DNA of 64,000 nt from Candidatus Omnitrophota bacterium (GTDB lineage Bacteria; Omnitrophota; Gorgyraeia; Pluralincolimonadales; Pluralincolimonadaceae). Location: positions 1,473 through 65,472 of the forward strand of contig JAQUPL010000003.1 of the NCBI GenBank assembly GCA_028716565.1. Reading direction: 5' to 3'. Positions 1-10,760 of the stretch are shown here, one piece after another. Every line of letters begins with the position of its first letter. Positions within the stretch are counted from its first letter, which is position 1. The notes below the pieces were generated by a model that did no database searches, was not told where the DNA came from, and saw only the letters and a list, made by a program, of their open reading frames with translations. The translations under genes were made by a program, and so were the position numbers.

Positions 1-2
1 CA

Positions 3-128
3 AATGAATTAGAAAATGAAAAGTTAAAACAATTAGATGGAGTTATCGGCTTGGGGAAAAACGTACTTCCTGACATTGATAAGTGTTTAGGCATCTTGAA
101 TAGGGCCATAGAAAATCAAACCGAATAA
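3..128 (+). CDS. 3' end of an upstream gene (partial), product unknown
   Basis: Open frame from the window edge to TAA at 126-128. Low GC like the rest of the island. No motif recognised. Confidence 0.25.
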   Translation, partial: NELENEKLKQLDGVIGLGKNVLPDIDKCLGILNRAIENQTE

Positions 129-175
129 AATTTAGCAGTATCATGTTGAAAAGTTTTTGAAAGGCAAAATCGGAT

Positions 176-1945
176 ATGGAAAACGATAGAAATTATAAAG
201 GTGCGTTACGCCTTGATTGGATAAATAAGAGCCTTTCGCTCTATTACGAGATTGACGAAAAAGAAGGGAAAGGTGTTCGGCCAGTTTGGGTGGCAAGAAA
301 TGACATCCGCGTTGCCGAACCACGCATTTTAAAGTTTCAAAAACACTACGGTGATGTAAAGAGCGAGAATGTGCTTATAAAAGGCGATAACCTTTTAGTC
401 CTTCGGAGTTTAGTTGAAATGTTTAAGGGCCGGCCGGACAAAGAAAAAGTGAAGTGTATTTATATTGATCCGCCATTTAATACCGGCAACGCTTTTAAGT
501 ATTATGATGATAACCTTCGACATTCTGAATGGTTAACAATGATGAGGGACCGTTTATATCTTTTGCGCAAGTTGATGAAAAAAGACGGGGTCATCTTCGT
601 AAATATCGACAACGACGAATTGCATTATCTTAAAGTTATAATGGATGAAATTTTCGGTAGAGAAAATTACATCACGACGGTTGCAATGAAAGCAAAGGCC
701 CCATCCGGCGTAGCGACTGGAAGCATGATTTTTGACGTCTCTCAATACCTACTTTGTTATCGTGGACCGCAGAAGCCAAAAGTTTATAAAAATAAAATCA
801 TTAAAGAAATTATTGATGAATCATCAAAAACAGCTGAACAGTATAGCTTACTTTTTGTAGATGAAGGGAAACAAGGAAAAGTCGTTAATGAATTGAAAAC
901 TAAAAGTGGGAATGTAATAAAAATAAAAAAACATACGAATTATAAAATTAAAAGAATTTCTAATGGAGAAAAGAACGTTGCCTGCTACTTAAAGAATTTT
1001 GATAAAATCTTCAGGACAGCAACTCTCTCCGGTGGGATCGAAAAACAGATAAAAAAACTCATACCTGACAGTGGCCTCTATTCATACATTCATGTGCCGA
1101 ACAAAGGAAAGTATGCTGATATTCCAACAAAGTATTATGTTTATAATAAAGAAGGTGTTTTATTTTTGAAAGAGGTTGCCGAAATTGCTGAAATTGAAGA
1201 CGAGAAAGGCGATTTAGCAAAAGTTCCAGCAAAACTAGAGTTAGTCAGTAATATATTTACAGATGATTTGTGGCAAGGTATTTCGGGAGAAGGCGATGTT
1301 GAGTTTCAGCAAAACAAAAAACCAGAGAAATTGATTCAGCGTTTATTAGAGTTAGTAACGTGTAAGGATGATTTAGTATTAGATATTTTTGCCGGCTCTG
1401 GAACAACCGCAGCGGTAGCGCATAAACTTGGCCGGCGCTGGATAACTGTAGAAATTGGCAGACAAGCAGAAGAGTTAATCATTCCTCGTCTTTTAAGAGT
1501 TGTTAATGGAAAAGATCAGACTGGGATTAGCAAAGATATAAATTGGAAAGGCCAAGGTGGTTTTAAGTACTATCAGCTCGGGGAAAGTGTAATACACGAA
1601 CATGACATGAACTGGGCTCTGAAGTCAGGGGAAATGGCGGAAGCTATCTTTTTGCATTTTCAATATAGACCCGTGAAAGCAGATTGGCTGAAAAATGAAA
1701 ATATGCATCTAGGCAAACATCAATCGGCCCGTTATAACTTTGCCCTTGCCTTTGCTTCAAGTAAAATTGAGACATTAACGGAAGATTTATACGAAACAAT
1801 TGTTATTGAGTTGGCTAAGGAGAAATTCAAGCATTTAACAATTTTTACCAATGTTGCAGTTTCTGTGCCTCCGGCGTCGCTTGACGAGCGTATTTTGATA
1901 AAGAAAATACCGGCAGCAATTTTGAGAGAATACAATTTGCTATGA
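176..1945 (+). CDS. mod: Type III R-M methyltransferase (Mod), beta-class N6-adenine MTase
   Basis: 589 aa. Motif IV IYIDPPFNTG lies near the N-terminus and motif I VLDIFAGSGTTAAVA near the C-terminus, with a variable (TRD) region between them. Stop overlaps the res start (ATGA). Confidence 0.8.
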   Translation: MENDRNYKGALRLDWINKSLSLYYEIDEKEGKGVRPVWVARNDIRVAEPRILKFQKHYGDVKSENVLIKGDNLLVLRSLVEMFKGRPDKEKVKCIYIDPPFNTGNAFKYYDDNLRHSEWLTMMRDRLYLLRKLMKKDGVIFVNIDNDELHYLKVIMDEIFGRENYITTVAMKAKAPSGVATGSMIFDVSQYLLCYRGPQKPKVYKNKIIKEIIDESSKTAEQYSLLFVDEGKQGKVVNELKTKSGNVIKIKKHTNYKIKRISNGEKNVACYLKNFDKIFRTATLSGGIEKQIKKLIPDSGLYSYIHVPNKGKYADIPTKYYVYNKEGVLFLKEVAEIAEIEDEKGDLAKVPAKLELVSNIFTDDLWQGISGEGDVEFQQNKKPEKLIQRLLELVTCKDDLVLDIFAGSGTTAAVAHKLGRRWITVEIGRQAEELIIPRLLRVVNGKDQTGISKDINWKGQGGFKYYQLGESVIHEHDMNWALKSGEMAEAIFLHFQYRPVKADWLKNENMHLGKHQSARYNFALAFASSKIETLTEDLYETIVIELAKEKFKHLTIFTNVAVSVPPASLDERILIKKIPAAILREYNLL

Positions 1946-4662
1946 AAACTAAATCGCAAACATTTTATGACTTAGTAAGTCAGGATCAGCAATACAAAAT
2001 CGCTATTGGTTCGCCGTCGCCAAAAACAATTGAAAATTACGATAAAATACAGCACTTGCTCAAGTTCGCCCTACGTCCTTATCAAATAGAAGCATTGAGC
2101 GCATTTCAGCTTTTTTGGAAAAATGGCTTTGACAGCCGGAGCTTAAAACAAAAGACTCTTCAACAAGAGAAAAATAATGAAGGCAAACTTGTAGAATGGC
2201 ATAAAGTTGGCTTTGAAATGGCAACCGGATCCGGCAAAACGCTTCTTATGGGCGCAATAATTTTGGATTTGTATCACAAAGGATTTAAGGATTTTCTCAT
2301 TTTGACCCCAAACACAATTTTATTTGATAAGACGATCGAAAACTTTACCCCTCGCGCGGTGAAAAGTATTTTTGGGGACGGCTGGAATTTAACCTACAAC
2401 TTAGTAAGTGGCAATTCATATCGGGACAAAACCTGCAACTACGAGGAAGATCGCGACATTTCATTCTATGTGTTTAATATGCAGAAGTTTTATGACAAAA
2501 CCGCTTCGTCAGGGCAAAAGGATGGCGAAGATACAATGAAAGGCACTCCGTATGTGCGCCGTCCGCTTGAGGATTCGTTGTGGCGTGATAAGAGTGGAAA
2601 TCATACCATTTCGTTTGTAGAATTTTTGCGCGAACGCCGGCCGGTTATTATTTCCGACGAAGCACATCACTATCAACAAAAGCAAACTACAGAAGCCATT
2701 TTTGAGTTTTTGCCGGGGATAGTGCTTGAATTTACCGCAACATCGCTTGAAAAAGGTGGAAGCGAAAGTTTTGGGCAAGATAATCTCTACAAGTATCCAA
2801 TGCAGAGATACATCAATGAGAGATACGGCAAGAGAATTTTTGCCGTCGGTTGCGGAACAGGCGACGATAAAACGCCGGATATAGTAACTGATAGTGATAA
2901 GCAAAAGTTGGTGTGGGGCATGTTAATACACTTGCTTAAATACGAGGCGCTTTCGGCTGTAAATGCTCCAGTGAAAAAAGCAATGTTGCTTACCAGGGCG
3001 AGATCAATCAAGCATGCGGATGCAATTGATATTTATCTCCGAAACTGGCCGGCTTCAACAGGAAACGAGATCGAAGATGTATTAGAGCAAGTTAACAGAG
3101 AAGGAACGGATATCGCTAAAATTGTTAGACAATATATGCCCAAGAAAAAAACGGAGCTAATTGAAAAATTAACGCGAATAGCAAAATCAGTTTTTACCAT
3201 TCATAGCGAAAACAAAAGCCAAGAAGAGGTTTTGGCAGATTACCAGTCGCTTGATGACAACGAAACGGAGATTGTTAATCAAGTTCGCATATTTACTGAA
3301 GGTGTTGATTATGACAATTTTTATACGATTGTAGTTTTGGGCGATACTGTTCAAAAAGTTGGACTTGTAGCAGCTCAACTTATCGGTCGCGGGTTGCGGC
3401 TTTATAAAGAAAAGCGAGAATTTGATGTTTTAGGACATGATTTGAAAGAGCAGAGCGAAATTTTACATGTGATTTGTGAACGTGGTCATCGGTTCGACCA
3501 GATCGTTAATGAAATAAGGCAGAATCTTCAGTTGTCAACATTAACCATAGAAATACCAACTGAGGAGGAAGACCGAGAAAACAAAGTTAATCGAAAGATT
3601 ATCGATGACTACGAAATCCCAATTTTACAAATCAAGCCAATCGCTACTGGAAAAAGTTTTGAGGACGCATTAAAAGATAAATCACTCAGCATTGCGGCGT
3701 TTATAGACGAAGTGTGTGTAGTTTTAAAGGGCGAAAAAGTTTTGAAGCCAGAAGTTTTGGCGATGGTAGATTATGCCGAGATTACAGCAGATGAAATTAC
3801 ATTGCAAGGAGACAAACCGAAGACAACTCGACGAACAATAGCTTTAGCAAAAACTGATATTGCGCATTGGGCATTAGATTTTATTGAGCAAACGGGATCA
3901 TTTATAGGAAATAATTCTTTTAACACGGCAAAGAAACTGATCGAAGCAATAACCAACTCTGGAATACAGGTTGATACCGCTTACGGTATTGATTATAAGC
4001 GTGCACTCAAGGCATTAAAGAAAAGCATTATTTGGTTTTATGGAAAAAAATCATTCGAAATTATGTTCAAAGGTCAATTCAATTTCCAGAAGAAGAACGT
4101 GAAGAATATTTTTATGGACGAGATAATTACAGTGCGTAAACGAGATGGATTAACGATGAATTTAATTCCATCTCATCAGCCGATGTCTTCACACCTGCAA
4201 CAAAAAGGAATTATCGTTGAAGGGTATAAATATTCTGTTAGGCCATATGTAAAGTTTGATTCTCCACCAGAAAAATGGGTTGCTGATGCACTCGAACATC
4301 TTTGTGAGTTGGATAAAAAGAAAAAAAGCTTTTGGGTCAGAAATGAACCAAAGACTGAATACTCCGTTGAAGTAAAGCCAGCTCCATTTTATCCCGATTT
4401 TCTTGCGTTTATTGGCGGAAAATGGATTATCGTTGACGTAAAAGGTAAACATCTTGCAGAAGGAAAACAGATTGACGATCGTAAGAAGGCCCTAAAGCTT
4501 TTGGACAAAAAAGGCGGTATTAAAACTTTTTTCCTTGTTGATAACGTTATGGAAAATAAAGGCTTCAAAGCAGTCGAAATTGCGACTGTTAATGATTTTG
4601 AAGGATTTGATGAATTGCGGCATGAAGAACTTAGCATTGAGGAATTTATCAAAAAGATGTGA
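1942..4662 (+). CDS. res: Type III restriction enzyme Res subunit (SF2 helicase plus C-terminal PD-(D/E)xK nuclease)
   Basis: 906 aa. Walker A EMATGSGKTLLMG, DEAH box ISDEAHHY, C-terminal YPDF...IIVDVKGK nuclease-like core. Translationally coupled to mod. Confidence 0.8.
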   Translation: MKTKSQTFYDLVSQDQQYKIAIGSPSPKTIENYDKIQHLLKFALRPYQIEALSAFQLFWKNGFDSRSLKQKTLQQEKNNEGKLVEWHKVGFEMATGSGKTLLMGAIILDLYHKGFKDFLILTPNTILFDKTIENFTPRAVKSIFGDGWNLTYNLVSGNSYRDKTCNYEEDRDISFYVFNMQKFYDKTASSGQKDGEDTMKGTPYVRRPLEDSLWRDKSGNHTISFVEFLRERRPVIISDEAHHYQQKQTTEAIFEFLPGIVLEFTATSLEKGGSESFGQDNLYKYPMQRYINERYGKRIFAVGCGTGDDKTPDIVTDSDKQKLVWGMLIHLLKYEALSAVNAPVKKAMLLTRARSIKHADAIDIYLRNWPASTGNEIEDVLEQVNREGTDIAKIVRQYMPKKKTELIEKLTRIAKSVFTIHSENKSQEEVLADYQSLDDNETEIVNQVRIFTEGVDYDNFYTIVVLGDTVQKVGLVAAQLIGRGLRLYKEKREFDVLGHDLKEQSEILHVICERGHRFDQIVNEIRQNLQLSTLTIEIPTEEEDRENKVNRKIIDDYEIPILQIKPIATGKSFEDALKDKSLSIAAFIDEVCVVLKGEKVLKPEVLAMVDYAEITADEITLQGDKPKTTRRTIALAKTDIAHWALDFIEQTGSFIGNNSFNTAKKLIEAITNSGIQVDTAYGIDYKRALKALKKSIIWFYGKKSFEIMFKGQFNFQKKNVKNIFMDEIITVRKRDGLTMNLIPSHQPMSSHLQQKGIIVEGYKYSVRPYVKFDSPPEKWVADALEHLCELDKKKKSFWVRNEPKTEYSVEVKPAPFYPDFLAFIGGKWIIVDVKGKHLAEGKQIDDRKKALKLLDKKGGIKTFFLVDNVMENKGFKAVEIATVNDFEGFDELRHEELSIEEFIKKM

Positions 4663-4684
4663 GGAAGAGAGGAAAAACAAAGAA

Positions 4685-5413
4685 ATGACTTTAAACAAAA
4701 GGAATGATTATGGTGATTATCAGTTCGGCCAAGCTGATAAAGGCAATTCTCTGACAAAAGCAACGGATTTCGTCAAAGAAATCGTAAAGGATGCATCTCC
4801 TTTTTTGGATGCCTGCGAATATTATAATTCTGAAAAAAAACTAGGTAAAGCTCCTGCGGTTGAATTGCCAGGCGGCAAACTTGTTATCGCCCCAGATGTT
4901 ATTTGCCGAACAAAAAAGGGAAATATTTTTTGGATTGAAGCAAAAGATAAATCTCAAAGATTCTACAAACCCGACACAGGAGCTGATCTTTTTCAAGTGT
5001 ATGGTTGGTATAAGGTTTGGTCTAAGTTAAATCAGCCAGTATTTATAGTTTTTAAAGACCCTGATTTTGATTCATGTTTGCCAAGAAAAACTGTAGATCG
5101 AAAATTGGTCGAGACCTTTAAAAAGCGCTGGGAATTGTTTAAAGGGAGACCTTATGGTGGCTGGTTAAACACATTACTTGTACTCCAAGAACAATATCCT
5201 CAGATTTTCGCTGAAAGATCAAGAGATATTCCCATGTTTATTTTCTATTTCCTCGTTTATTTAATGCAAGGCAATATTACTTGGGAGAAAATAATTAACG
5301 ATTTAGACAGCGACACTATTGGTGACATCCAAAAGGAAATTAGCGCTTATTTTGAGGGAAGATTGATAAATGAAAATGAAATTGAAGCGAAAATAAAAGA
5401 ACTTTTTTCTTAA
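4685..5413 (+). CDS. Hypothetical protein with Hjc/YraN-like PD-(D/E)xK core (cassette gene A)
   Basis: ATG at 4685 is preceded by GAGGAAGAGAGG. Ordered E (VELPGG) ... PD (IAPDVI) ... IFWIEAKDKS. The 292-aa ORF-track start at 4535 overlaps res and is probably too far upstream. Confidence 0.5.
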   Translation: MTLNKRNDYGDYQFGQADKGNSLTKATDFVKEIVKDASPFLDACEYYNSEKKLGKAPAVELPGGKLVIAPDVICRTKKGNIFWIEAKDKSQRFYKPDTGADLFQVYGWYKVWSKLNQPVFIVFKDPDFDSCLPRKTVDRKLVETFKKRWELFKGRPYGGWLNTLLVLQEQYPQIFAERSRDIPMFIFYFLVYLMQGNITWEKIINDLDSDTIGDIQKEISAYFEGRLINENEIEAKIKELFS

Positions 5414-5499
5414 AATGTACGTTCAAAACAAAGCGAATAACACCCCTTATCAAAGTCTTTTCATAAGAGCTTTTTTCTCTCATTTAAAATATAGGGTAA

Positions 5500-6312
5500 A
5501 TGCCGGCACGCATGGCACTGAGAAAAACAAGAAACGTGTCTATGGATAAGTATGTTACCAGCAAGACGGGCGTTAAGGTTTATAGGGATTATCGCGATCA
5601 GGTAACGATAGATAAAGACAACCCACTTCTTAAGACTAAAGCAAGCCTACCGAGAGAAACCTATAACAGAGGAATCATAAAAGGACTATCCAGATTCGGT
5701 AGTGAGAATAGTGAAGACATCAAGACTTGGAATGTATTTAGATCGCTACAATTGAATAAAAACATGAAAAAGTATTATGGATTGATAGGCTTGCAGGATG
5801 ATTGTGAGAGAATGCTATTCTGGGGGATGGATGCTGATACCTGCAAATTCGACAAAGACTTAAAATCGGTTCTTGATAAAATAGAACCGCCTACATTATG
5901 GACCGTGCAACAGACAGAGCCAGATGTTGTGATTATAGGAAAGAATTCAGTTGTATTTAATGAGTCAAAGCTAGGCAAGCCCGAGGCTAATATCGATGCG
6001 TGGAACCGCAAAGATGAGTTTTCAGATAAGCATAAGCTTTATAGAAAGAATGCCGAAAAATACTTTAAGAAAAGTTTTATAAATGACTTCGATTTACAGG
6101 GTAGGAGGTTTTATCAATTGGTCCGTAATTACATAATAGGCTCAAGTTTTGCTGAAAAATTAAATAAAAAGTTTTATTTAACGACTTTGGTTAGCAAAGA
6201 CAATAAGGCGATAAGTGGCCTATCCCACAAGGCAGAATTTGATCTGTTTTGCTCAAACTTGCAAGGTAGCTCTACTTGCTATTTATTGACTTGGGACCAA
6301 TTGGATAGTTAG
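5500..6312 (+). CDS. Hypothetical protein with second PD-(D/E)xK-like core (cassette gene B)
   Basis: 270 aa. TEPDVVIIGKNSVVFNESKLGK gives D...ExK. Start uncertain; alternative ATGs at 5512 and 5542. Confidence 0.45.
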   Translation: MPARMALRKTRNVSMDKYVTSKTGVKVYRDYRDQVTIDKDNPLLKTKASLPRETYNRGIIKGLSRFGSENSEDIKTWNVFRSLQLNKNMKKYYGLIGLQDDCERMLFWGMDADTCKFDKDLKSVLDKIEPPTLWTVQQTEPDVVIIGKNSVVFNESKLGKPEANIDAWNRKDEFSDKHKLYRKNAEKYFKKSFINDFDLQGRRFYQLVRNYIIGSSFAEKLNKKFYLTTLVSKDNKAISGLSHKAEFDLFCSNLQGSSTCYLLTWDQLDS

Positions 6313-6383
6313 TTCGGGAAAACTTAGAGCGATCCAAGAGATGCCAGCGCGTAATAAATATTCTGCGTGGACGTGAGGAAGAA

Positions 6384-7124
6384 GTGAGGAAATCTCCAAA
6401 CAATAGCAGATACTTGAGGATAGATACTCGACCATTTTGGCGTACTGTCATTGTCTATACAGAAAAGGAAAAGAAAGAGATTCAGGCATATTTCCCAAAG
6501 GAAAAGCAAAAGGTTGCTCTGAAGGAAACTGCAGAGCATGTTTCTACATTGGTTAGATGGTTGAGCCCGGATATAACCCTAAAAAATATTAAACGTAAGG
6601 AAAGCGTCCAGCAGTTGCAGGCATTACATGATCATCTGCAGTCTTTAGAAAATACATTGCAAGCTTATTTACAGCAAGGCTCACATCAAAATACAATTAA
6701 GCTTAAGCAGCAATTTTATAGTTTTATTCATCCGGAATACCCCCAGATAACATTGCAGACATTAAACGATTTAATTTTGTATCTTAAATTAGCATGTAAA
6801 GAAGTTATGAAAAATCCCGGAAAACCTGGATGGAAAGATCAGAGCTATCATGAAGCCGTTGAGAACTTAGCTGCCGTTTGGAAGAACCATACCAATAAGG
6901 AGCCCAAGCTCCAAAATAAGTGCTATAAAGTTGACGAATATCAAAATAGTCAAAAGACGTGCGGGCCGTTTCTGGACTATCTCAATATCTCCATTAAATC
7001 CGCTATTTGTCATGCCAATAAACAGCGTAGAAAAAAAATCTCCCTAAATGTAAGTCTTGCCAATGTCGCCAGAGATGTCATTCGTTGCCGGAAAAAATCT
7101 ATGGCGGAAATCTCTTCAAAATAG
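6384..7124 (+). CDS. Hypothetical protein (cassette gene C), basic C-terminal tail
   Basis: 246 aa. GTG start inside the duplicated GTGAGGAAgaaGTGAGGAA. No motif recognised. Low GC, same strand and spacing as A and B. Confidence 0.4.
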   Translation: MRKSPNNSRYLRIDTRPFWRTVIVYTEKEKKEIQAYFPKEKQKVALKETAEHVSTLVRWLSPDITLKNIKRKESVQQLQALHDHLQSLENTLQAYLQQGSHQNTIKLKQQFYSFIHPEYPQITLQTLNDLILYLKLACKEVMKNPGKPGWKDQSYHEAVENLAAVWKNHTNKEPKLQNKCYKVDEYQNSQKTCGPFLDYLNISIKSAICHANKQRRKKISLNVSLANVARDVIRCRKKSMAEISSK

Positions 7125-7195
7125 CCCAAAAATCTCCATAAGCGTTATTAACGTCTTCACGCTATACTCTGCCTTATAAAGAAGAGGTAACGAAA

Positions 7196-7513
7196 ATGAA
7201 GACGTTAATATCAATCTCCGAAATCCAAATCATTCCAGTTAAACCAAATAACGGTCTCATAGCATTTGCCTCCTGCGTAGTAAATAATCAATTCTACATA
7301 GGCAATATTGCAATCTACACTTCTTTATCAAGTCAAGCCGGTTATAGGCTAGTCTATCCCACCAAAGTTTTACCTAACGGAAAGGCCTTAAGCTGTATTT
7401 ATCCTATTAACAAGATTGTAGGTAGCGCCGTACAGGAGGCTATTATAAATAAATATGAAGACTTGATGAAAAAGGTGGTGGGAAAGAATGAAGCGATTAA
7501 CGCCGGCTTGTAG
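7196..7513 (+). CDS. spoVG: SpoVG-family nucleic-acid-binding protein
   Basis: 105 aa. The pattern IQIIPVKPNNGLIAFASCVVNNQFYIGNIAIY...LPNGKALSCIYPINKIVGSAVQEAIINKY matches the SpoVG core (V..G..AfAS....N.F.I..I...nG...PIN...Q.AI...Y). RBS AAGAGG precedes it. Confidence 0.6.
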   Translation: MKTLISISEIQIIPVKPNNGLIAFASCVVNNQFYIGNIAIYTSLSSQAGYRLVYPTKVLPNGKALSCIYPINKIVGSAVQEAIINKYEDLMKKVVGKNEAINAGL

Positions 7514-7943
7514 ATCGTTTTTGTACTATTTAATGAATCAATATACTTACTTCAGTAAAAATGGGAAGTTGGCGGGAGATGGGTCATTTTTTAAAGCAGA
7601 CTCTGAAGCGGCAGGGTATTTGGGTGTATGCCCAAGAACAATCAAAAGGTGCAGAGGTCACTTAAAGGAGATAGGTAAAATAAAAGCCGCAGAGGGTAAA
7701 TGGAGTGGTAATGCCACACGATATTGGCTATTAGAAAAGGATGACAAAATGTCACCCTTTCAGTCAGGCATAAAGGACGACAAATTGTCCGCAAAGGTTG
7801 ACAAATTGTCCAATAAAGGGTGTCAAAATGTTACCCCAAATAAAGAAAAGAAAGAGATAAATCAAGAGACATTAAATGATCTTCAAATACAAGAAATGCA
7901 CAATGCATTTCAAGAAACTATCAAAAAATCTTTCTCCAAATAA
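7488..7943 (+). CDS. RepA_N-like replication initiator / winged-helix DNA-binding protein
   Basis: N-terminus FLYYLMNQYTYFSKNGKL...GSFFKADSEAAGYLGVCPRTIKRCRGHLKEIGKI fits the RepA_N pattern (KNGW.DENG.VYI.FT.EEL...LGIS..TV.KA.KELEE.GLI). RBS GGTGG. Followed by an iteron-like region. Confidence 0.5.
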   Translation: MKRLTPACRSFLYYLMNQYTYFSKNGKLAGDGSFFKADSEAAGYLGVCPRTIKRCRGHLKEIGKIKAAEGKWSGNATRYWLLEKDDKMSPFQSGIKDDKLSAKVDKLSNKGCQNVTPNKEKKEINQETLNDLQIQEMHNAFQETIKKSFSK

Positions 7944-7958
7944 AGGAGGTTCGTCAAA

Positions 7959-8147
7959 ATGAAATCATTAACGCCGATAAAGGCGATTAGAGCCAAATGC
8001 CTTATCTGCTCAGCGCAGCAACCATCAGAGGTCCGTAACTGCGTGATATTAGACTGCCCTTTATTTCACTACAGGTTTGGCAAGAACCCAAATAGGGGTG
8101 GCATAGGGGGCCAAACTTCAATTCCTGTACAGGAAAACAGTAGCTGA
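7959..8147 (+). CDS. Small Zn-ribbon protein (CxxC...CxxxxC)
   Basis: 62 aa with CLIC...CVILDC. RBS AAGGAGG lies 7 nt upstream. Confidence 0.4.
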   Translation: MKSLTPIKAIRAKCLICSAQQPSEVRNCVILDCPLFHYRFGKNPNRGGIGGQTSIPVQENSS

Positions 8148-8149
8148 GT

Positions 8150-8375
8150 AGGGGTTATTGGCCGGAAGCCAGCAGAAGCATATCTGGCTAACCCTAAAAG
8201 TATCAATTTGAATATACGTGCGTGAGTGCGTAAAAAATGAGGGAAATAGGCAATATAAAAAAGGTAACAAGGTAATGAAGGTAATGTATATAAAAAGGTA
8301 AGAAAGTAATGTGAAATAAGGTAAAAAGGTTCGAAAGGTTCGGTAAATGCACCTAAAAAGCAGGAAACCCAAGCT
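8150..8375. repeat. AT-rich iteron-like direct-repeat block (AAGGTAA x6, AAAGGTTCG x2, GTGCGT x2)
   Basis: Seen directly: AAGGTAAcAAGGTAATGAAGGTAATG...AAGGTAAG...AAGTAATG...AAGGTAAAAAGGTTCGAAAGGTTCGG, and GTGCGTGAGTGCGT at 8218-8231. Non-coding, between the Zn-ribbon gene and xis. Confidence 0.5.
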
Positions 8376-8405
8376 TAAATGGCAGGGAATGGAAGCATAG
8401 GTTAT

Positions 8406-8591
8406 ATGGAAAAACGATTTTTAGGCATGGAAGAAGCTTCTGAATACTTAGGCTTAACCAAGGGGACTCTCTATGGCTGGGTTTGCCACAAGAAGATCCC
8501 TTACTTAAAAATAGGCCGACTGGTAAAGTTTGATCTGCGCGAGATAGAGGCCTGGCTTAAAGACAGGAGGGTAAAAAGTGTCGAATTATAG
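8406..8591 (+). CDS. xis: Excisionase / AlpA-type HTH DNA-binding protein
   Basis: EASEYLGLTKGTLYGWVCHKKIPYLKIGRLVKFDLREIEAWL matches the excisionase-family HTH. Alternative starts at 8379 and 8427. Confidence 0.6.
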   Translation: MEKRFLGMEEASEYLGLTKGTLYGWVCHKKIPYLKIGRLVKFDLREIEAWLKDRRVKSVEL

Positions 8592-8676
8592 CTTGACTTC
8601 CCCCTCACTTCAGGGTAGTCTTGTGACTGACGGCTATACTATAACACATTGAAATACAATAGGTTATATCAAAAAT

Positions 8677-9762
8677 ATGGCGATAAGAGAACGCGACGGT
8701 AAATACTTTATAGACTATTACGCCAATGGACACAGGGTTCGCGAGGCCATAAGCGGCAGCAGGGCTCTTGCCGAAAAAGTCTTACGCAAGAGACAGAGCG
8801 CGATTGATGAGAACAGATACTTGGATATCAAGCGCAGCGAAAAGATCAGATTTGAGGATTTCCTCGAAGACTACCTTGAGCACCATTCGAAGCTAAATAA
8901 CCGCTCCTGGAAACGCGCCGAGATACCAAACATGAAGCGCCTTAAGGCGTACTTTTCAGGGCGCCTTTTGCAGGAAATCACCCCTCTCGATGTCGAGAAG
9001 TTTAAGGCCAAAACTTTAACCGAGGTCAGCCCCGCCACAACCAATCGTTGCCTCGCGCTTCTTAAGTCCATGTTTAATAAGGCGACCATCTGGGGAAAGC
9101 TTAACGGCCCGAACCCGGTTAAGGGGATAAAGCTATTCAGAGAAGAGAGCCGGCTTCGTTTTCTTGAGAAAGAAGAGATCGCCACGCTCCTTAAGTATTG
9201 CAACGGATACTTATATCCAGTCGTTACCGTTGCTTTGCATACCGGAATGCGAAAGTCAGAGATCCTAAACCTTAAATGGCATGATGTCGATTTTAGCCGC
9301 GATAACATATATTTAAGCCAGACTAAGAACGGGGAGAAAAGAGAGGTTTCCATGAACTCCCTGGTGAGGTCAACGCTTATCAAAGTAAGGAAGCATCCGA
9401 GCAGCCCTTATATTTTTGTAAACGCAAAGGGAAAACCCTATACTGATATACGAAAATCATTCCACGCAGCCCTGCATAAGGCCGGCATAAGAGACTTTAG
9501 GTTCCACGACCTAAGGCATACCTTTGCCTCGCAATTGGCGATGGCAGGGGTGGACCTGAACTCCATCAGGGAGCTTATGGGGCATAAGTCAATCAAGATG
9601 ACGCTACGCTACAGCCACCTATCGTCCGGCCATAAAAAACGAGCCGTTGAGGCATTAAACAACCAGATAGGCACGATTTGGGCACAAGAGCCGGTTAACA
9701 AGACAGAGGAAACGGCCACACCGTCACAATTGTTGACAAATTCGGGGGTTATGGTAATATGA
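8677..9762 (+). CDS. int: Tyrosine site-specific integrase
   Basis: 361 aa. C-terminal catalytic box HDLRHTFASQLAMAGVDLNSIRELMGHKSIKMTLRYSHL (R...HxxR...Y). Confidence 0.9.
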   Translation: MAIRERDGKYFIDYYANGHRVREAISGSRALAEKVLRKRQSAIDENRYLDIKRSEKIRFEDFLEDYLEHHSKLNNRSWKRAEIPNMKRLKAYFSGRLLQEITPLDVEKFKAKTLTEVSPATTNRCLALLKSMFNKATIWGKLNGPNPVKGIKLFREESRLRFLEKEEIATLLKYCNGYLYPVVTVALHTGMRKSEILNLKWHDVDFSRDNIYLSQTKNGEKREVSMNSLVRSTLIKVRKHPSSPYIFVNAKGKPYTDIRKSFHAALHKAGIRDFRFHDLRHTFASQLAMAGVDLNSIRELMGHKSIKMTLRYSHLSSGHKKRAVEALNNQIGTIWAQEPVNKTEETATPSQLLTNSGVMVI

Positions 9763-9785
9763 AAATGGCGGACGACGAAAGCACG

Positions 9786-9835
9786 TCAGATTGTCGATCT
9801 GAAGACCGCGAGTTCAAATCTCGTCGGGCCCGCCA
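9786..9835 (+). other. attR: 3' half of tRNA-Asp(GUC), from anticodon arm to CCA, with no 5' half
   Basis: Anticodon arm TCAGA-ttGTCga-TCTGA, T-arm GCGAG-TTCAAAT-CTCGT, acceptor 3' strand CGGGCCC, discriminator G, CCA. The matching 5' strand GGGCCCG is absent upstream. Lies 24 bp after the int stop. Confidence 0.55.
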
Positions 9836-9891
9836 TGTTTTACCAGAAGGTCTTGAAAATGGATAAAATACACAAATAGGAATCAAACCAA

Positions 9892-9917
9892 GGCGTTAGG
9901 AAACTAACGCCTTTTTT
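9892..9917 (+). terminator. Intrinsic terminator (GGCGTTAG-gaaa-CTAACGCC then T6)
   Basis: Perfect 8-bp stem and U-tract just after the tRNA fragment. Consistent with the native tRNA-Asp terminator retained to the right of attR. Confidence 0.6.
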
Positions 9918-9971
9918 GTTTGAAAGGAAACCAAGGTGAAAACATTTCCGGGGCTAGAATAAGGAGGGGAA

Positions 9972-10679
9972 ATGGAATATGTAATAATTTTAATTACGTT
10001 AATACTAGCAATTGTCGGAATTTGGTTTAAAAATGAATCTTCTGGGAATGTAAACTTTATAATTATTTTATTACTCGTCACGTCTACTCTGTTGAGTATT
10101 TATCTTAAGTATTCAGATACCAAAAAGTATATTTATCAAAAAGATAGCGGCAGATTAACGTTTCGGATAAGGAATAATATATCTTATCCAACGTTTTCCA
10201 TAGGTTCGGCAAAACTTGTTAAAACTGGTAATGATTTCGTGCTTTTTAATATATTAGGGGACGATTTGGATGTAAAAATAGAAAAATCATACCTTTTCTG
10301 GAAATTATTTCCTCGTAGTCAGTATAAACTCAATCTTACGTTAAGAAACGAGAAAAACGAAATATTGGCAAAGGTTAAAGATAATGTTTGGCAAAGGAAT
10401 CCGATTTTAACGTTAGATAAAAATTTTACTAAAGATGCATTAGAGATTTTAGATAAAGAAGGGAATGTTATATTGCGCGTTAGAATTTTGGGTGATGTTT
10501 TAGATTTTTCAGGTAGGTTTTATAGCGATACAGGTGACGGTATCGCGTTATGTGAAAGCGTAGAGCCGAAGGGAGGGCTTATGGAAATAAAGCATAATGG
10601 CGAAAAGCTAGAAGCGAGAATTAAACCTATTTTCAAATACCCCTCTGCGGAGTATCCGGGAGTCTTAGAAAAGCATTAA
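9972..10679 (+). CDS. Hypothetical membrane-anchored protein (2 N-terminal TM helices), low GC
   Basis: 235 aa. RBS AGGAGGGG. Lies outside attR but still about 33% GC. Confidence 0.5.
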   Translation: MEYVIILITLILAIVGIWFKNESSGNVNFIIILLLVTSTLLSIYLKYSDTKKYIYQKDSGRLTFRIRNNISYPTFSIGSAKLVKTGNDFVLFNILGDDLDVKIEKSYLFWKLFPRSQYKLNLTLRNEKNEILAKVKDNVWQRNPILTLDKNFTKDALEILDKEGNVILRVRILGDVLDFSGRFYSDTGDGIALCESVEPKGGLMEIKHNGEKLEARIKPIFKYPSAEYPGVLEKH

Positions 10680-10760
10680 AATAGCATATATCGAAAATAG
10701 AAATTAGAGTGAAATATACGCAATTAGTGACGGACCAAAAGAGAAAATATAATATAAAAT

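What the first reader, a model, noticed from the sequence alone, without database searches (positions are those of the whole stretch)
1..9835. Integrase-bounded low-GC island ending in a 3' half of tRNA-Asp with the native terminator
GC jumps from about 35% to about 60% near 10.7 kb. At 9786-9835, 24 bp after the integrase stop, is a sequence that folds as the tRNA-Asp(GUC) anticodon arm, T-arm and acceptor 3' strand with discriminator G and CCA. No complementary 5' acceptor strand (GGGCCCG) lies upstream, so this is an att core copy and not a gene. A perfect intrinsic terminator at 9892-9917 follows it, as expected if the chromosomal tRNA-Asp 3' flank sits to the right of attR. This predicts an intact tRNA-Asp as attL upstream of the window, in the same orientation.
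Basis: seen in the sequence. Interest (0 to 1): 0.5.

Follow-up and report, generated by a model that had tools for sequence, protein, structure and literature searches.

The report
tRNA-Asp attR of an 11-kb island
The sequence is the right-hand junction (attR) of an ordinary 11-kb integrase-driven genomic island that carries a restriction-modification system and sits in the tRNA-Asp gene of an uncultured Omnitrophota bacterium.

Summary

- **The fragment.** Window 9780-9835 is an exact copy of positions 21-76 of the Omnitrophota tRNA-Asp(GUC) gene. It has no 5' acceptor or D arm, and it starts 17 nt after the stop codon of a catalytically intact tyrosine integrase.
- **The repeat.** Three independent assemblies break exactly at the edges of a 57-bp repeat R (9780-9836). 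An 11,184-bp contig carrying the whole island starts with the last 30 nt of R and ends with the first 30 nt.
- **The predicted attL tRNA.** In a MAG of the same species (99.9% identical), one contig ends on M48 peptidase, tRNA-Val and an intact tRNA-Asp whose last 57 nt are R. Another contig of that MAG starts at window 9780.
- **Empty site.** A relative has tRNA-Val, tRNA-Asp, a terminator and the PQ-loop gene with no island.
- **The island.** It is about 11.2 kb, 38.6% GC against 53%. It carries a Type III restriction-modification system, an excisionase and the integrase. Its left end lies about 1.35 kb outside the window.
- **Family geometry.** Relatives show arm-type repeats about 125 bp either side of the anticodon, which places the crossover in the anticodon loop.

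This is a new member of a well-known kind.

The parts
1..9779 (+). Body of the integrated island as far as it lies in the window. The complete element is about 11.18 kb, and its left end lies 1,345-1,375 bp left of window position 1.
   Evidence: L001 equals window 1-9809 at 100% identity and extends 1,375 bp further left, starting with the repeat. GC is 0.386-0.39 against 0.534 for the chromosome.
176..1945 (+). Type III restriction-modification methyltransferase (Mod); island cargo.
   Evidence: Pfam N6_N4_Mtase, E = 2.7e-42. PADLOC MTase_III, 317 bits.
1942..4662 (+). Type III restriction enzyme subunit (Res, helicase-type); island cargo.
   Evidence: Pfam ResIII, E = 2.7e-23. PADLOC REase_III, E = 1.5e-12. 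Its start overlaps the Mod stop codon.
7196..7513 (+). SpoVG-like small protein. A counterpart is also present in the related element L081.
   Evidence: Pfam SpoVG, 36.6 bits against a cut-off of 29.6. The L081 ORF 111-392 is similar.
7488..7943 (+). Possible replication-initiator-like DNA-binding protein. It contains three 19-nt direct repeats at 7736-7811.
   Evidence: PHROG 428 'replication initiation protein', E = 5e-6, a weak match. The repeats are family D1.
8379..8591 (+). Excisionase / recombination directionality factor (HTH_17).
   Evidence: Pfam HTH_17, 47.6 bits. NCBIfam TIGR01764 'excise', 47 bits against a cut-off of 28.8. PHROG 66 excisionase.
8677..9762 (+). Tyrosine integrase, transcribed towards the att core.
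   Evidence: Pfam Phage_integrase E = 4.9e-37 plus Int_N. R192, K217, H277, R280, H303 and Y312 are invariant in 30 relatives. Best PDB relatives are XerA and HP1 integrase.
9662..9689 (+). Candidate P arm-type integrase-binding site (ACCAGATAGGCACGATTTGGGCACAAGA), lying inside the last codons of int.
   Evidence: A 28-nt direct repeat of it (3 mismatches) lies at L001 104-131, in the island's left end. The motif lies at -122 and +126 from the anticodon. The same geometry is seen in 6 other elements.
9733..9760 (+). Promoter-like element (TTGACA, 16 nt, TG-extended TAATAT) pointing into the tRNA fragment. Function unknown.
   Evidence: Best plus-strand hit of the scan. It is conserved in L081. 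It overlaps coding sequence that is conserved across the family.
9780..9836 (+). attR core: the 57-bp direct repeat R, made of tRNA-Asp(GUC) positions 21-76 (anticodon arm, variable loop, T arm, 3' acceptor strand, discriminator G, CCA) plus one T.
   Evidence: 100% identical to the 3' 56 nt of intact tRNA-Asp genes and to the last 57 nt of L076. Assembly breaks fall at 9780, 9807 and 9809.
9791..9797 (+). Anticodon loop TTGTCGA, flanked by the inverted stem arms TCAGA and TCTGA. This is the inferred strand-exchange (overlap) region.
   Evidence: Inference. The repeat blocks of relatives start or end at the anticodon arm. The arm sites are centred on it at about 125 bp on either side, whichever tRNA half an element carries.
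9837..9921 (+). Native chromosomal 3' flank of tRNA-Asp, with its intrinsic terminator (stem 9890-9913, T run to 9918).
   Evidence: Terminator scan. The flank is 80% conserved in L081 directly upstream of the PQ-loop gene, with a compensatory T-A to C-G change in the stem.

Best explanation
Window 9780-9836 is the attR junction of an integrative genomic island of about 11.2 kb that inserted into the single-copy tRNA-Asp(GUC) gene of an Omnitrophota bacterium. The circular element carried an attP made of tRNA-Asp positions 21-76, placed directly downstream of its integrase gene. Recombination with the chromosomal gene most likely exchanged strands in the 7-nt anticodon loop, with the anticodon-stem arms acting as inverted core sites. 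This left an intact tRNA-Asp at the left end (native 5' part, island-supplied 3' part and island-supplied terminator). It also left the displaced native 3' part with the native terminator at the right end, next to int. The integrase appears to be of the lambda-like kind that also binds arm sites. One arm site lies in its own last codons, about 122 bp before the anticodon, and one lies about 126 bp after it in the island's left end. The excisionase gene just upstream of int would reverse the reaction. The cargo is a Type III restriction-modification system plus several unknown genes. **Shown:** the repeat, the intact tRNA at the other end, the native synteny, the gene content and the conserved site geometry. 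**Inferred:** the crossover position, arm-site binding, and present-day mobility.
For: - **The fragment is tRNA-Asp 21-76.**
- **A 57-bp repeat at both island ends.** L001 starts and ends inside R. L079 also ends at 9809. L064 and L065 start at 9807, and L062 and L063 start at 9780.
- **Intact tRNA-Asp on the other side, in the same MAG.** L076 ends with tRNA-Val plus tRNA-Asp, and its last 57 nt equal R. The MAG contigs are 99.88-99.95% identical to the window.
- **Native synteny and an empty site.** DUF4416, M48, tRNA-Val, tRNA-Asp, PQ-loop, Zincin_1 and dCache occur in that order in L067, L033 and L050.
- **Independent assembly of the same junction type.** JGI contig L081 has Xis, Int (90% amino-acid identity), the same 56-nt fragment, and further on the native flank and the PQ-loop gene.
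- **A related element with both ends on one contig.** SAG AM-311-A19 has an intact tRNA-Asp (L041) and a 57%-identical int followed by a 50-nt fragment (L035).
- **Integrase and excisionase are intact.**
- **Island-borne terminator right after the CCA at the left end.**
- **Arm motif at -122 to -125 and +126 to +130 from the anticodon** in elements targeting Asp, Thr, Arg, Ala and Lys. Only 12 of its 56 matches in 726 kb of related loci lie away from int 3' ends, and several of those are the P' copies.
- **Foreign composition.** 38.6% against 53.4% GC.
- **The principle is the published one for tDNA islands.** PMC4383910.
Against: - attL was not read through in one contig. It is reconstructed from contig ends in de Bruijn-graph assemblies.
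- R is identical in many Omnitrophota species. In a mixed community, an assembler could in principle join an island from one species to the flank of another.
- The two R copies are identical, so the crossover point cannot be read from this element alone.
- No circular form or excision product was seen.
- The N-terminal arm-binding domain is only a sub-threshold Pfam match (Arm-DNA-bind_2, E = 0.044).
- The P site overlaps a conserved protein motif ([D/G]-T-x-W). Part of its conservation is therefore due to coding.
- Low GC continues 870 bp beyond attR, and the island does not explain that stretch.
Confidence: 0.9

Rival explanations
1. Assembly chimera. The island is integrated in, or is an episome of, another co-occurring Omnitrophota organism. 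The assembler joined it to this chromosome through the 57-nt stretch of tRNA-Asp that is identical across species.
For: R is 100% identical in many Omnitrophota species. All short-read assemblies available here break at R. The island contig was not binned into the two NCBI MAGs, because Mod and Res are found only on Logan contigs.
Against: - The window's own assembly reads through int, R and the flank.
- An independent JGI contig from a related organism (L081) also has a 90%-identical int, R and, further on, the same native flank and PQ-loop gene.
- The contig ends fit one occupied locus exactly: contig 1 ends at the last base of R and contig 13 starts at its first base.
- The island and flank contigs co-occur in the same three sequencing runs.
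Confidence: 0.06
2. Immobile relic. The junction is a true attR, but the element can no longer excise, so it is a fixed defence island rather than an active mobile element.
For: No circular form was observed. No conjugation or packaging genes were found. Neighbouring genomes show decayed relics at the same site (L081 and L015).
Against: int and xis are full-length, and all six catalytic residues are present. The two R copies are identical over 57 nt. The P and P' sites differ at only 3 of 28 positions. The assembly graphs branch at both edges of R, which also fits a population that varies in whether the island is present.
Confidence: 0.3
3. Decayed tRNA pseudogene unrelated to the integrase. 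On this view a duplicated tRNA-Asp lost its 5' part and happens to lie next to an integrase gene.
For: tRNA gene fragments are common in prokaryotic genomes. The title and abstract of PMC9897764 concern such fragments (listed; the paper was not read).
Against: - The fragment is 100% identical to the functional gene, with a sharp boundary.
- A second copy of exactly this block bounds the other end of a low-GC, integrase-bearing segment.
- The same int-plus-fragment arrangement recurs in L081, L035 and L120.
- Relatives show an empty site.
Confidence: 0.02

Closest known systems
tDNA-integrated genomic islands as catalogued by Islander (Hudson, Lau & Williams 2015, PMC4383910), class with a 3' tDNA fragment and an anticodon-centred attP ('A' sites)
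   Same: A tyrosine integrase splits a tRNA gene. The island restores the gene, and the displaced 3' fragment in the same orientation marks the far end. The identity block runs from the anticodon arm to the 3' end. Tandem relics occur at the same tDNA.
   Different: The host is an uncultured Omnitrophota bacterium and the target is tRNA-Asp. The integrase lies at the fragment (attR) end rather than next to the regenerated tRNA. Many relatives in its integrase family appear to have the opposite polarity, which is rare in Islander (159 of 3,919 islands).
Lambda-type heterobivalent tyrosine integrases with arm-type sites and an excisionase (established knowledge, recalled from memory)
   Same: The int 3' end abuts attP and an Xis gene lies just upstream of int. 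Direct-repeat candidate arm sites flank the core on both sides at a fixed distance.
   Different: Binding was not tested. The arm-binding domain is not detectable above threshold. Only one strong site was found per arm, with a possible second P' site at +173. The P site lies inside the integrase's own coding sequence.
Small defence islands or integrative mobilisable elements carrying restriction-modification systems
   Same: An integrase and excisionase module plus a Type III restriction-modification cargo, with no capsid or conjugation genes. A sister element with the same layout (Mod, Res, Xis, Int) sits at tRNA-Gln in another MAG from the same study (L083).
   Different: No relaxase or oriT was identified, so how the element transfers is unknown. 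Several cargo genes have no detectable family.

Membership tests
tDNA-integrated genomic island (Islander criteria) | An intact tRNA gene and a cognate fragment of it in the same orientation bound the element. | tested here: met
   The fragment is at window 9780-9835. The intact tRNA-Asp lies at the end of L076, in the same MAG and orientation, and its last 57 nt are identical. L001 links the two ends. The ends were joined through contig ends, not in one contig.
tDNA-integrated genomic island (Islander criteria) | A tyrosine integrase gene (PF00589, not Xer or integron type) lies inside the interval. | tested here: met
   Int at 8677-9762 matches PF00589 with E = 4.9e-37. All NCBIfam Xer and integron models score far below their cut-offs.
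tDNA-integrated genomic island (Islander criteria) | An unoccupied site exists in related genomes. | tested here: met
   L067 to L075 and L033 have tRNA-Val and tRNA-Asp followed directly by the PQ-loop gene and the same downstream genes.
Tyrosine recombinase superfamily | The catalytic residues R-K-H-R-H/W-Y are present. | tested here: met
   R192, K217, H277, R280, H303 and Y312 are invariant in an alignment of 30 relatives.
Heterobivalent (lambda-like) integrase system | Arm-type repeats lie on both sides of the core. | tested here: met
   A 28-nt direct repeat is present in the window element. The motif lies at -122 to -125 and +126 to +130 from the anticodon in 6 elements (in SAG AM-311-A19 at -103/+128). 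Only 12 of its 56 matches in 726 kb lie away from int 3' ends, and several of those are the P' copies themselves.
Heterobivalent (lambda-like) integrase system | An N-terminal arm-binding domain that binds those repeats. | tested here: inconclusive
   Residues 1-57 precede the Int_N core-binding domain. They match Arm-DNA-bind_2 only at E = 0.044, 14.2 bits against a cut-off of 22. Binding cannot be tested here.
Excisionase (Xis / TIGR01764) | A small HTH_17 or 'excise' domain protein is encoded next to int. | tested here: met
   ORF 8379-8591 scores 47 bits on TIGR01764 against a cut-off of 28.8 and matches HTH_17.
Type III restriction-modification system | Adjacent Mod methyltransferase and Res helicase-nuclease genes. 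| tested here: met
   Mod matches PADLOC MTase_III at 317 bits. Res matches Pfam ResIII and PADLOC REase_III. The two genes overlap by 4 nt. Activity was not tested.
Prophage | Capsid, portal, terminase or tail genes. | tested here: not met
   No structural PHROG or Pfam hits in any island ORF. The element is only 11.2 kb.
Integrative conjugative element | Relaxase, coupling protein or type IV secretion genes. | tested here: not met
   None were detected. A relative, L082, does carry TrwB and Replic_Relax genes, but this element does not.
Functional tRNA gene | A complete cloverleaf with a paired acceptor stem. | tested here: not met
   ARAGORN and Rfam at gathering threshold find nothing. The sub-threshold Rfam hit lacks the acceptor stem and D arm. 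The upstream sequence is unrelated to GGGCCCGTGGTGCAGTCTGGTCT.

The most novel reading that the evidence does not exclude
The element belongs to a large, mostly Omnitrophota integrase clade with a rigid attP architecture: int, a P site inside its own last codons, the anticodon-loop core, and a P' site, with the arm sites about 125 bp either side of the anticodon. Different lineages carry either the 5' half or the 3' half of the target tRNA. Many members appear to use the globally rare polarity in which the element supplies the 5' half and must therefore bring a tRNA promoter. The window element would be a polarity-switched member that still keeps a strong outward promoter-like site (9733-9760). 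That site could transcribe the displaced 3' tRNA half as far as the native terminator.
Probability: 0.25. Interest if true: 0.5.

Novelty: new member of a known kind. Interest (0 to 1): 0.3.

Why it matters
Practically, the result fixes the right boundary of a mobile defence island in a phylum known almost only from metagenomes. It also explains why short-read assemblies and MAG binning lose the island, and why they lose the link between the two chromosomal contigs: a 57-bp tRNA repeat and a 15-point GC difference.

It also shows that tRNA-Asp is a recurrent insertion site in Omnitrophota, where intact, tandem and decayed elements are all found.

The family-wide geometry gives a concrete prediction. 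The arm sites lie about 125 bp either side of the anticodon, so the recombination mechanism is testable, and the motif could be used to find element ends automatically. Conceptually nothing here departs from the established model of tDNA islands.

Tried and rejected
- **Second copy of R in the window.** A search for a second or degenerate copy of R, to explain the low-GC stretch 9837-10700, found none.
- **Orphan ORF 9972-10679.** It has no Pfam, PHROG or PADLOC match. It shows no similarity to the variable ORFs at the same position in L081 or L050. The stretch remains unexplained.
- **Island left end in JGI metagenomes.** A scan for the left-end 30-mer found nothing.
- **Viral contigs.** A scan with the integrase gave only a 29%-identical relative, L077, which was not pursued.
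- **Fetching the source contig.** The protein index lists an NCBI contig of 136,835 bp that carries the identical integrase. Look-ups with Mod, Res and Int returned only Logan contigs. attL therefore could not be read through.
- **First guess for the source's M48 peptidase.** P0014 turned out to come from a different species, but it provided the empty-site comparison.
- **P' site as a remnant of an int gene.** Rejected. Similarity is limited to about 28 nt, a stop codon lies two codons upstream in frame, and the site sits at a fixed distance in unrelated elements.
- **Co-variation of the variable base in the two half-sites.** 40 of 44 loci have matching bases, but 35 of them share the same A/A state. 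This is suggestive only.
- **Promoter-like site at 9733-9760.** Its TTGACA overlaps a family-conserved coding stretch (TTGA[T/A]A). I do not claim it is functional.
Full report
**The observation.**
- The window has six tRNA genes and none is tRNA-Asp. ARAGORN and Rfam at gathering threshold find no tRNA near 9.8 kb.
- A permissive Rfam scan finds a sub-threshold tRNA match at 9780-9824. It scores 24.2 bits against a gathering score of 29. It covers model positions 9-63 with the D arm deleted and no acceptor pairing.
- By eye, 9786-9835 reads as an anticodon arm (TCAGA-TTGTCGA-TCTGA, anticodon GTC), a variable loop, a T arm (GCGAG-TTCAAAT-CTCGT), CGGGCCC, G and CCA.
- The integrase ORF ends at 9762. 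A 10-bp-stem terminator sits at 9890-9913 with a T run after it.

**What tRNA it is, and whose.**
- The 26-mer GAGTTCAAATCTCGTCGGGCCCGCCA occurs once in the window.
- In one genome per species (GTDB) it occurs in 59 loci, nearly all from Candidatus Omnitrophota. Almost every time it is the 3' end of an intact tRNA-Asp(GTC) gene lying just downstream of tRNA-Val(TAC).
- The intact gene reads GGGCCCGTGGTGCAGTCTGGTCTAGCACGTCAGATTGTCGATCTGAAGACCGCGAGTTCAAATCTCGTCGGGCCCGCCA.
- The window matches it perfectly from AGCACG (9780, tRNA position 21) to CCA (9835). It bears no resemblance upstream of 9780.

**The other end of the island.**
- Looking up the Mod protein returned Logan contig L001 (11,184 bp), which is window 1-9809 plus 1,375 bp to the left.
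  - L001 begins with cgcgagttcaaatctcgtcgggcccgccat, which equals window 9807-9836.
  - L001 ends at window 9809.
  - In a k=31 graph this is the signature of a 57-bp repeat R (9780-9836) at both ends of the contig's unique part.
- Other contigs break at the same places.
  - L079 ends at 9809.
  - L064 and L065 start at 9807.
  - Two NCBI MAG contigs, L062 and L063, start exactly at 9780. They are 99.88% and 99.95% identical to the window.
- To find what enters R from the left, I used synteny. In relatives, tRNA-Val and tRNA-Asp are preceded by DUF4416 and an M48 peptidase.
  - A homologue search with the M48 protein and a look-up of hit P0010 gave contig JAQTMX010000001.1. This is from the same MAG as L062.
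  - That contig ends with tRNA-Val, an intact tRNA-Asp and one T. Its last 57 nt are identical to window 9780-9836.
Its native upstream neighbours are attached, and the contig stops on the last base of R.

**The right flank is the native one.**
- Homologues of window genes 10761 (PQ-loop), 10976, 11756 (Zincin_1) and 12200 (dCache sensor) lie directly downstream of intact tRNA-Asp, in the same order, in L033, L050, L024 and L044.
- L067 is a closer relative, at 80-86% nucleotide identity in those genes. It has M48, tRNA-Val, tRNA-Asp, a terminator and the PQ-loop gene with nothing in between. It is an empty site.
- JGI contig L081 carries a 90%-identical integrase followed by the same 56-nt fragment. 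Further on it has a stretch 80% identical to window 9830-9921, directly before its PQ-loop gene. The terminator stem there carries a compensatory change (GGCGTTAG/CTAACGCC against GGCGCTAG/CTAGCGCC).
- L081 is also an independent assembly of an int-R junction at this same chromosomal locus, which argues against a chimeric join.

**The element.**
- The unique part is 11,124 bp and one R adds 57 bp, giving about 11.18 kb. GC is 38.6% against 53.4% for the rest of the window.
- The genes, from left to right:
  - two small ORFs, which lie outside the window;
  - Type III Mod and Res;
  - three unknown ORFs;
  - a SpoVG-like protein;
  - a weak replication-initiator-like protein;
  - a 62-aa ORF;
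  - an excisionase (TIGR01764, above cut-off);
  - a tyrosine integrase.
- All six catalytic residues of the integrase are invariant among 30 relatives.
- There are no capsid, packaging or conjugation genes. It is a small integrative defence island, not a prophage or an ICE.
- Directly after the CCA at the left end, the island carries its own terminator at L001 38-60. This replaces the native one for the regenerated tRNA. The related SAG element does the same.

**How it most likely works.**
- I rebuilt attP as window 9400-9836 followed by L001 31 onwards. It contains one strong direct repeat:
  - ACCAGATAGGCACGATTTGGGCACAAGA at window 9662-9689, inside the last codons of int;
  - ACCGGATAGGCACGGTTTGGGCACAAGG at L001 104-131.
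- The SAG AM-311-A19 element has a 57%-identical integrase and also sits in tRNA-Asp. It has the analogous pair with a different half-site, GTCAC instead of GGCAC.
- A metagenome scan with an integrase alignment gave 80 further loci.
  - The motif NCAC-N5/6-GGNCAC is present at the int 3' end in 44 of the 80 loci tabulated.
  - Over 726 kb of those loci, only 12 of its 56 matches lie elsewhere, and several of those 12 are the P' copies listed next.
- Where both ends of an element could be mapped, the motif starts at a fixed distance from the first anticodon base.

| Element | Target tRNA | P site | P' site |
|---|---|---|---|
| window | Asp | -122 | +126 |
| L085 | Thr | -124 | +129 |
| L113 | Arg | -125 | +130 |
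| L121 | Ala | -124 | +129 |
| L126 | Lys | -122 | +128 |
| SAG AM-311-A19 | Asp | -103 | +128 |
| L015 (P' at two copies; P at a third) | Asp | -122 | +127 |
| L103 | Met | -122 | not found |

- The repeat blocks of relatives begin or end at the anticodon arm.
- Together these points place the strand exchange in the anticodon loop, with the stem arms as inverted core sites. They also suggest a lambda-like integrase that bridges arm and core sites.
- These steps are inferred, not shown.
  - The N-terminal 57 residues match an arm-binding domain only below threshold.
  - The P site overlaps a conserved [D/G]-T-x-W protein motif.
  - The two R copies are identical, so this element by itself does not reveal the crossover.

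**Comparison with what is known.**
- This is the textbook situation formalised by Islander. A tyrosine integrase splits a tDNA, the island restores the gene, and the regenerated gene and its displaced fragment mark the island ends.
- In Islander, anticodon-centred sites account for 2,083 of 3,919 islands and 3' fragments for 3,760 (PMC4383910).
- A full-text search found no paper that describes tRNA-Asp islands in Omnitrophota. That is a gap in cataloguing, not a new principle.
- I therefore rate it a new member of a known kind, with modest interest.

**Remaining doubts.**
- attL was reconstructed from contig ends.
- R is identical in many Omnitrophota species, so a mis-join cannot be formally excluded. 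L081 and the exact fit of the contig ends make it unlikely.
- Whether the element still excises is unknown.
- The 33%-GC stretch 9837-10700 lies outside the island.
  - It consists of the native flank plus an orphan membrane-anchored ORF (9972-10679).
  - The ORF is absent from L067, L033 and L081 at this position.
  - It has no family match and no bounding repeat.

**Side observations from the family survey.**
- In 53 of 83 related loci the integrase gene is followed within 200 nt by a complete tRNA gene in the same orientation. Twelve different amino-acid specificities are represented.
- In all five such loci where a repeat of that tRNA was found upstream (L085, L103, L113, L121, L126), the far end of the element carries a displaced 5' half of the tRNA. 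In Islander this is the rare polarity (159 of 3,919 islands).
- The window element, L081, the SAG element and L120 have the common 3'-fragment polarity. Yet int sits at the same end and the arm geometry is the same.
- A strong promoter-like site lies at window 9733-9760, pointing into the fragment. It may correspond to the promoter that 5'-half elements need. It overlaps conserved coding sequence, so I leave it as a lead.

Noticed in passing
L085-L164, L082, L083 (relatives of window Int 8677-9762): In 53 of 83 related loci the integrase stop is followed within 200 nt by a complete tRNA gene in the same orientation (Lys, Met, Arg, Thr, Ala, Gln, Gly, Leu, Phe, Pro, Ser, Val). In five loci where a repeat of that tRNA was found upstream (L085, L103, L113, L121, L126), the far end carries a displaced 5' half of the tRNA up to the anticodon loop. 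This is the polarity that is rare in Islander. The window element, L081, L035/L041 and L120 have the usual 3'-fragment polarity with int at the same end.
   Followed up: partly
window 9733-9760: A near-consensus promoter-like site (TTGACA, 16 nt, TG-extended TAATAT) lies inside the last codons of int and points into the tRNA fragment. The native terminator is about 130 nt downstream, so a short transcript containing a 3' tRNA-Asp half is possible. The site is conserved in L081, and the TTGA[T/A]A part recurs in the family as coding sequence.
   Followed up: partly
window 9972-10679: An orphan 235-aa ORF with an N-terminal hydrophobic segment and about 30% GC lies between the native tRNA-Asp terminator and the PQ-loop gene. 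It has no Pfam, PHROG or PADLOC match. It is absent at this position in L067, L033 and L081, and it is unrelated to the variable ORFs found there in L081 and L050. It explains why the GC step is at 10.7 kb rather than at attR.
   Followed up: partly
L015 (reverse strand; tRNA-Asp 4675-4753, fragments 3216-3262 and 2968-3018): An intact tRNA-Asp is followed by two 3' fragments. The two fragments are 249 nt apart with a single arm motif between them, which is +127 from one and -122 from the next. This looks like the scar left when an island body is deleted by recombination between its P' and P repeats.
   Followed up: partly
L081 3340-5630: There is a tandem array of relics at the same locus in a related organism. 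The order is int, a 56-nt fragment, an 84-aa ORF whose N-terminal sequence (YILKS...YIGYT) looks GIY-YIG-like by eye (not scanned), a 17-nt remnant of the tRNA 3' end (3753-3770), a 347-aa orphan ORF, a degenerate remnant, the native flank with terminator, and the PQ-loop gene.
   Followed up: partly
window 7736-7811 (also 9778-9796): Three 19-nt direct repeats (AAAGGAYGACAAATTGTCC, each containing the palindrome GACAA-A-TTGTC) lie inside the replication-initiator-like ORF 7488-7943. They may be iterons. A 15-of-19 match to the start of R (AAAGCACGTCAGATTGTCG) is probably chance.
   Followed up: no
L083 / L084 (GCA_028715415.1 and run SRR22315506): A second island with the same layout (Type III Mod, Res, unknown genes, Xis, and a 60%-identical Int) lies next to a complete tRNA-Gln(CTG) in another Omnitrophota MAG from the same study. 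A 24-nt repeat of the tRNA 3' end lies about 140 nt further on. A third paralogous integrase (54% identical, L080) from the same run has no recognisable tRNA beside it.
   Followed up: partly
L029, L053, L061, L032, L019, L036: In several Omnitrophota genomes tRNA-Val and tRNA-Asp are separated by 0.7-3.7 kb instead of the usual 10-150 nt. This suggests insertions upstream of tRNA-Asp as well.
   Followed up: no
L001 160-174: A second, weaker arm-like motif (CCACAATTAGGCCAC) lies 47 nt after the P' site, at +173 from the anticodon. It may be a second P' arm site.
   Followed up: no
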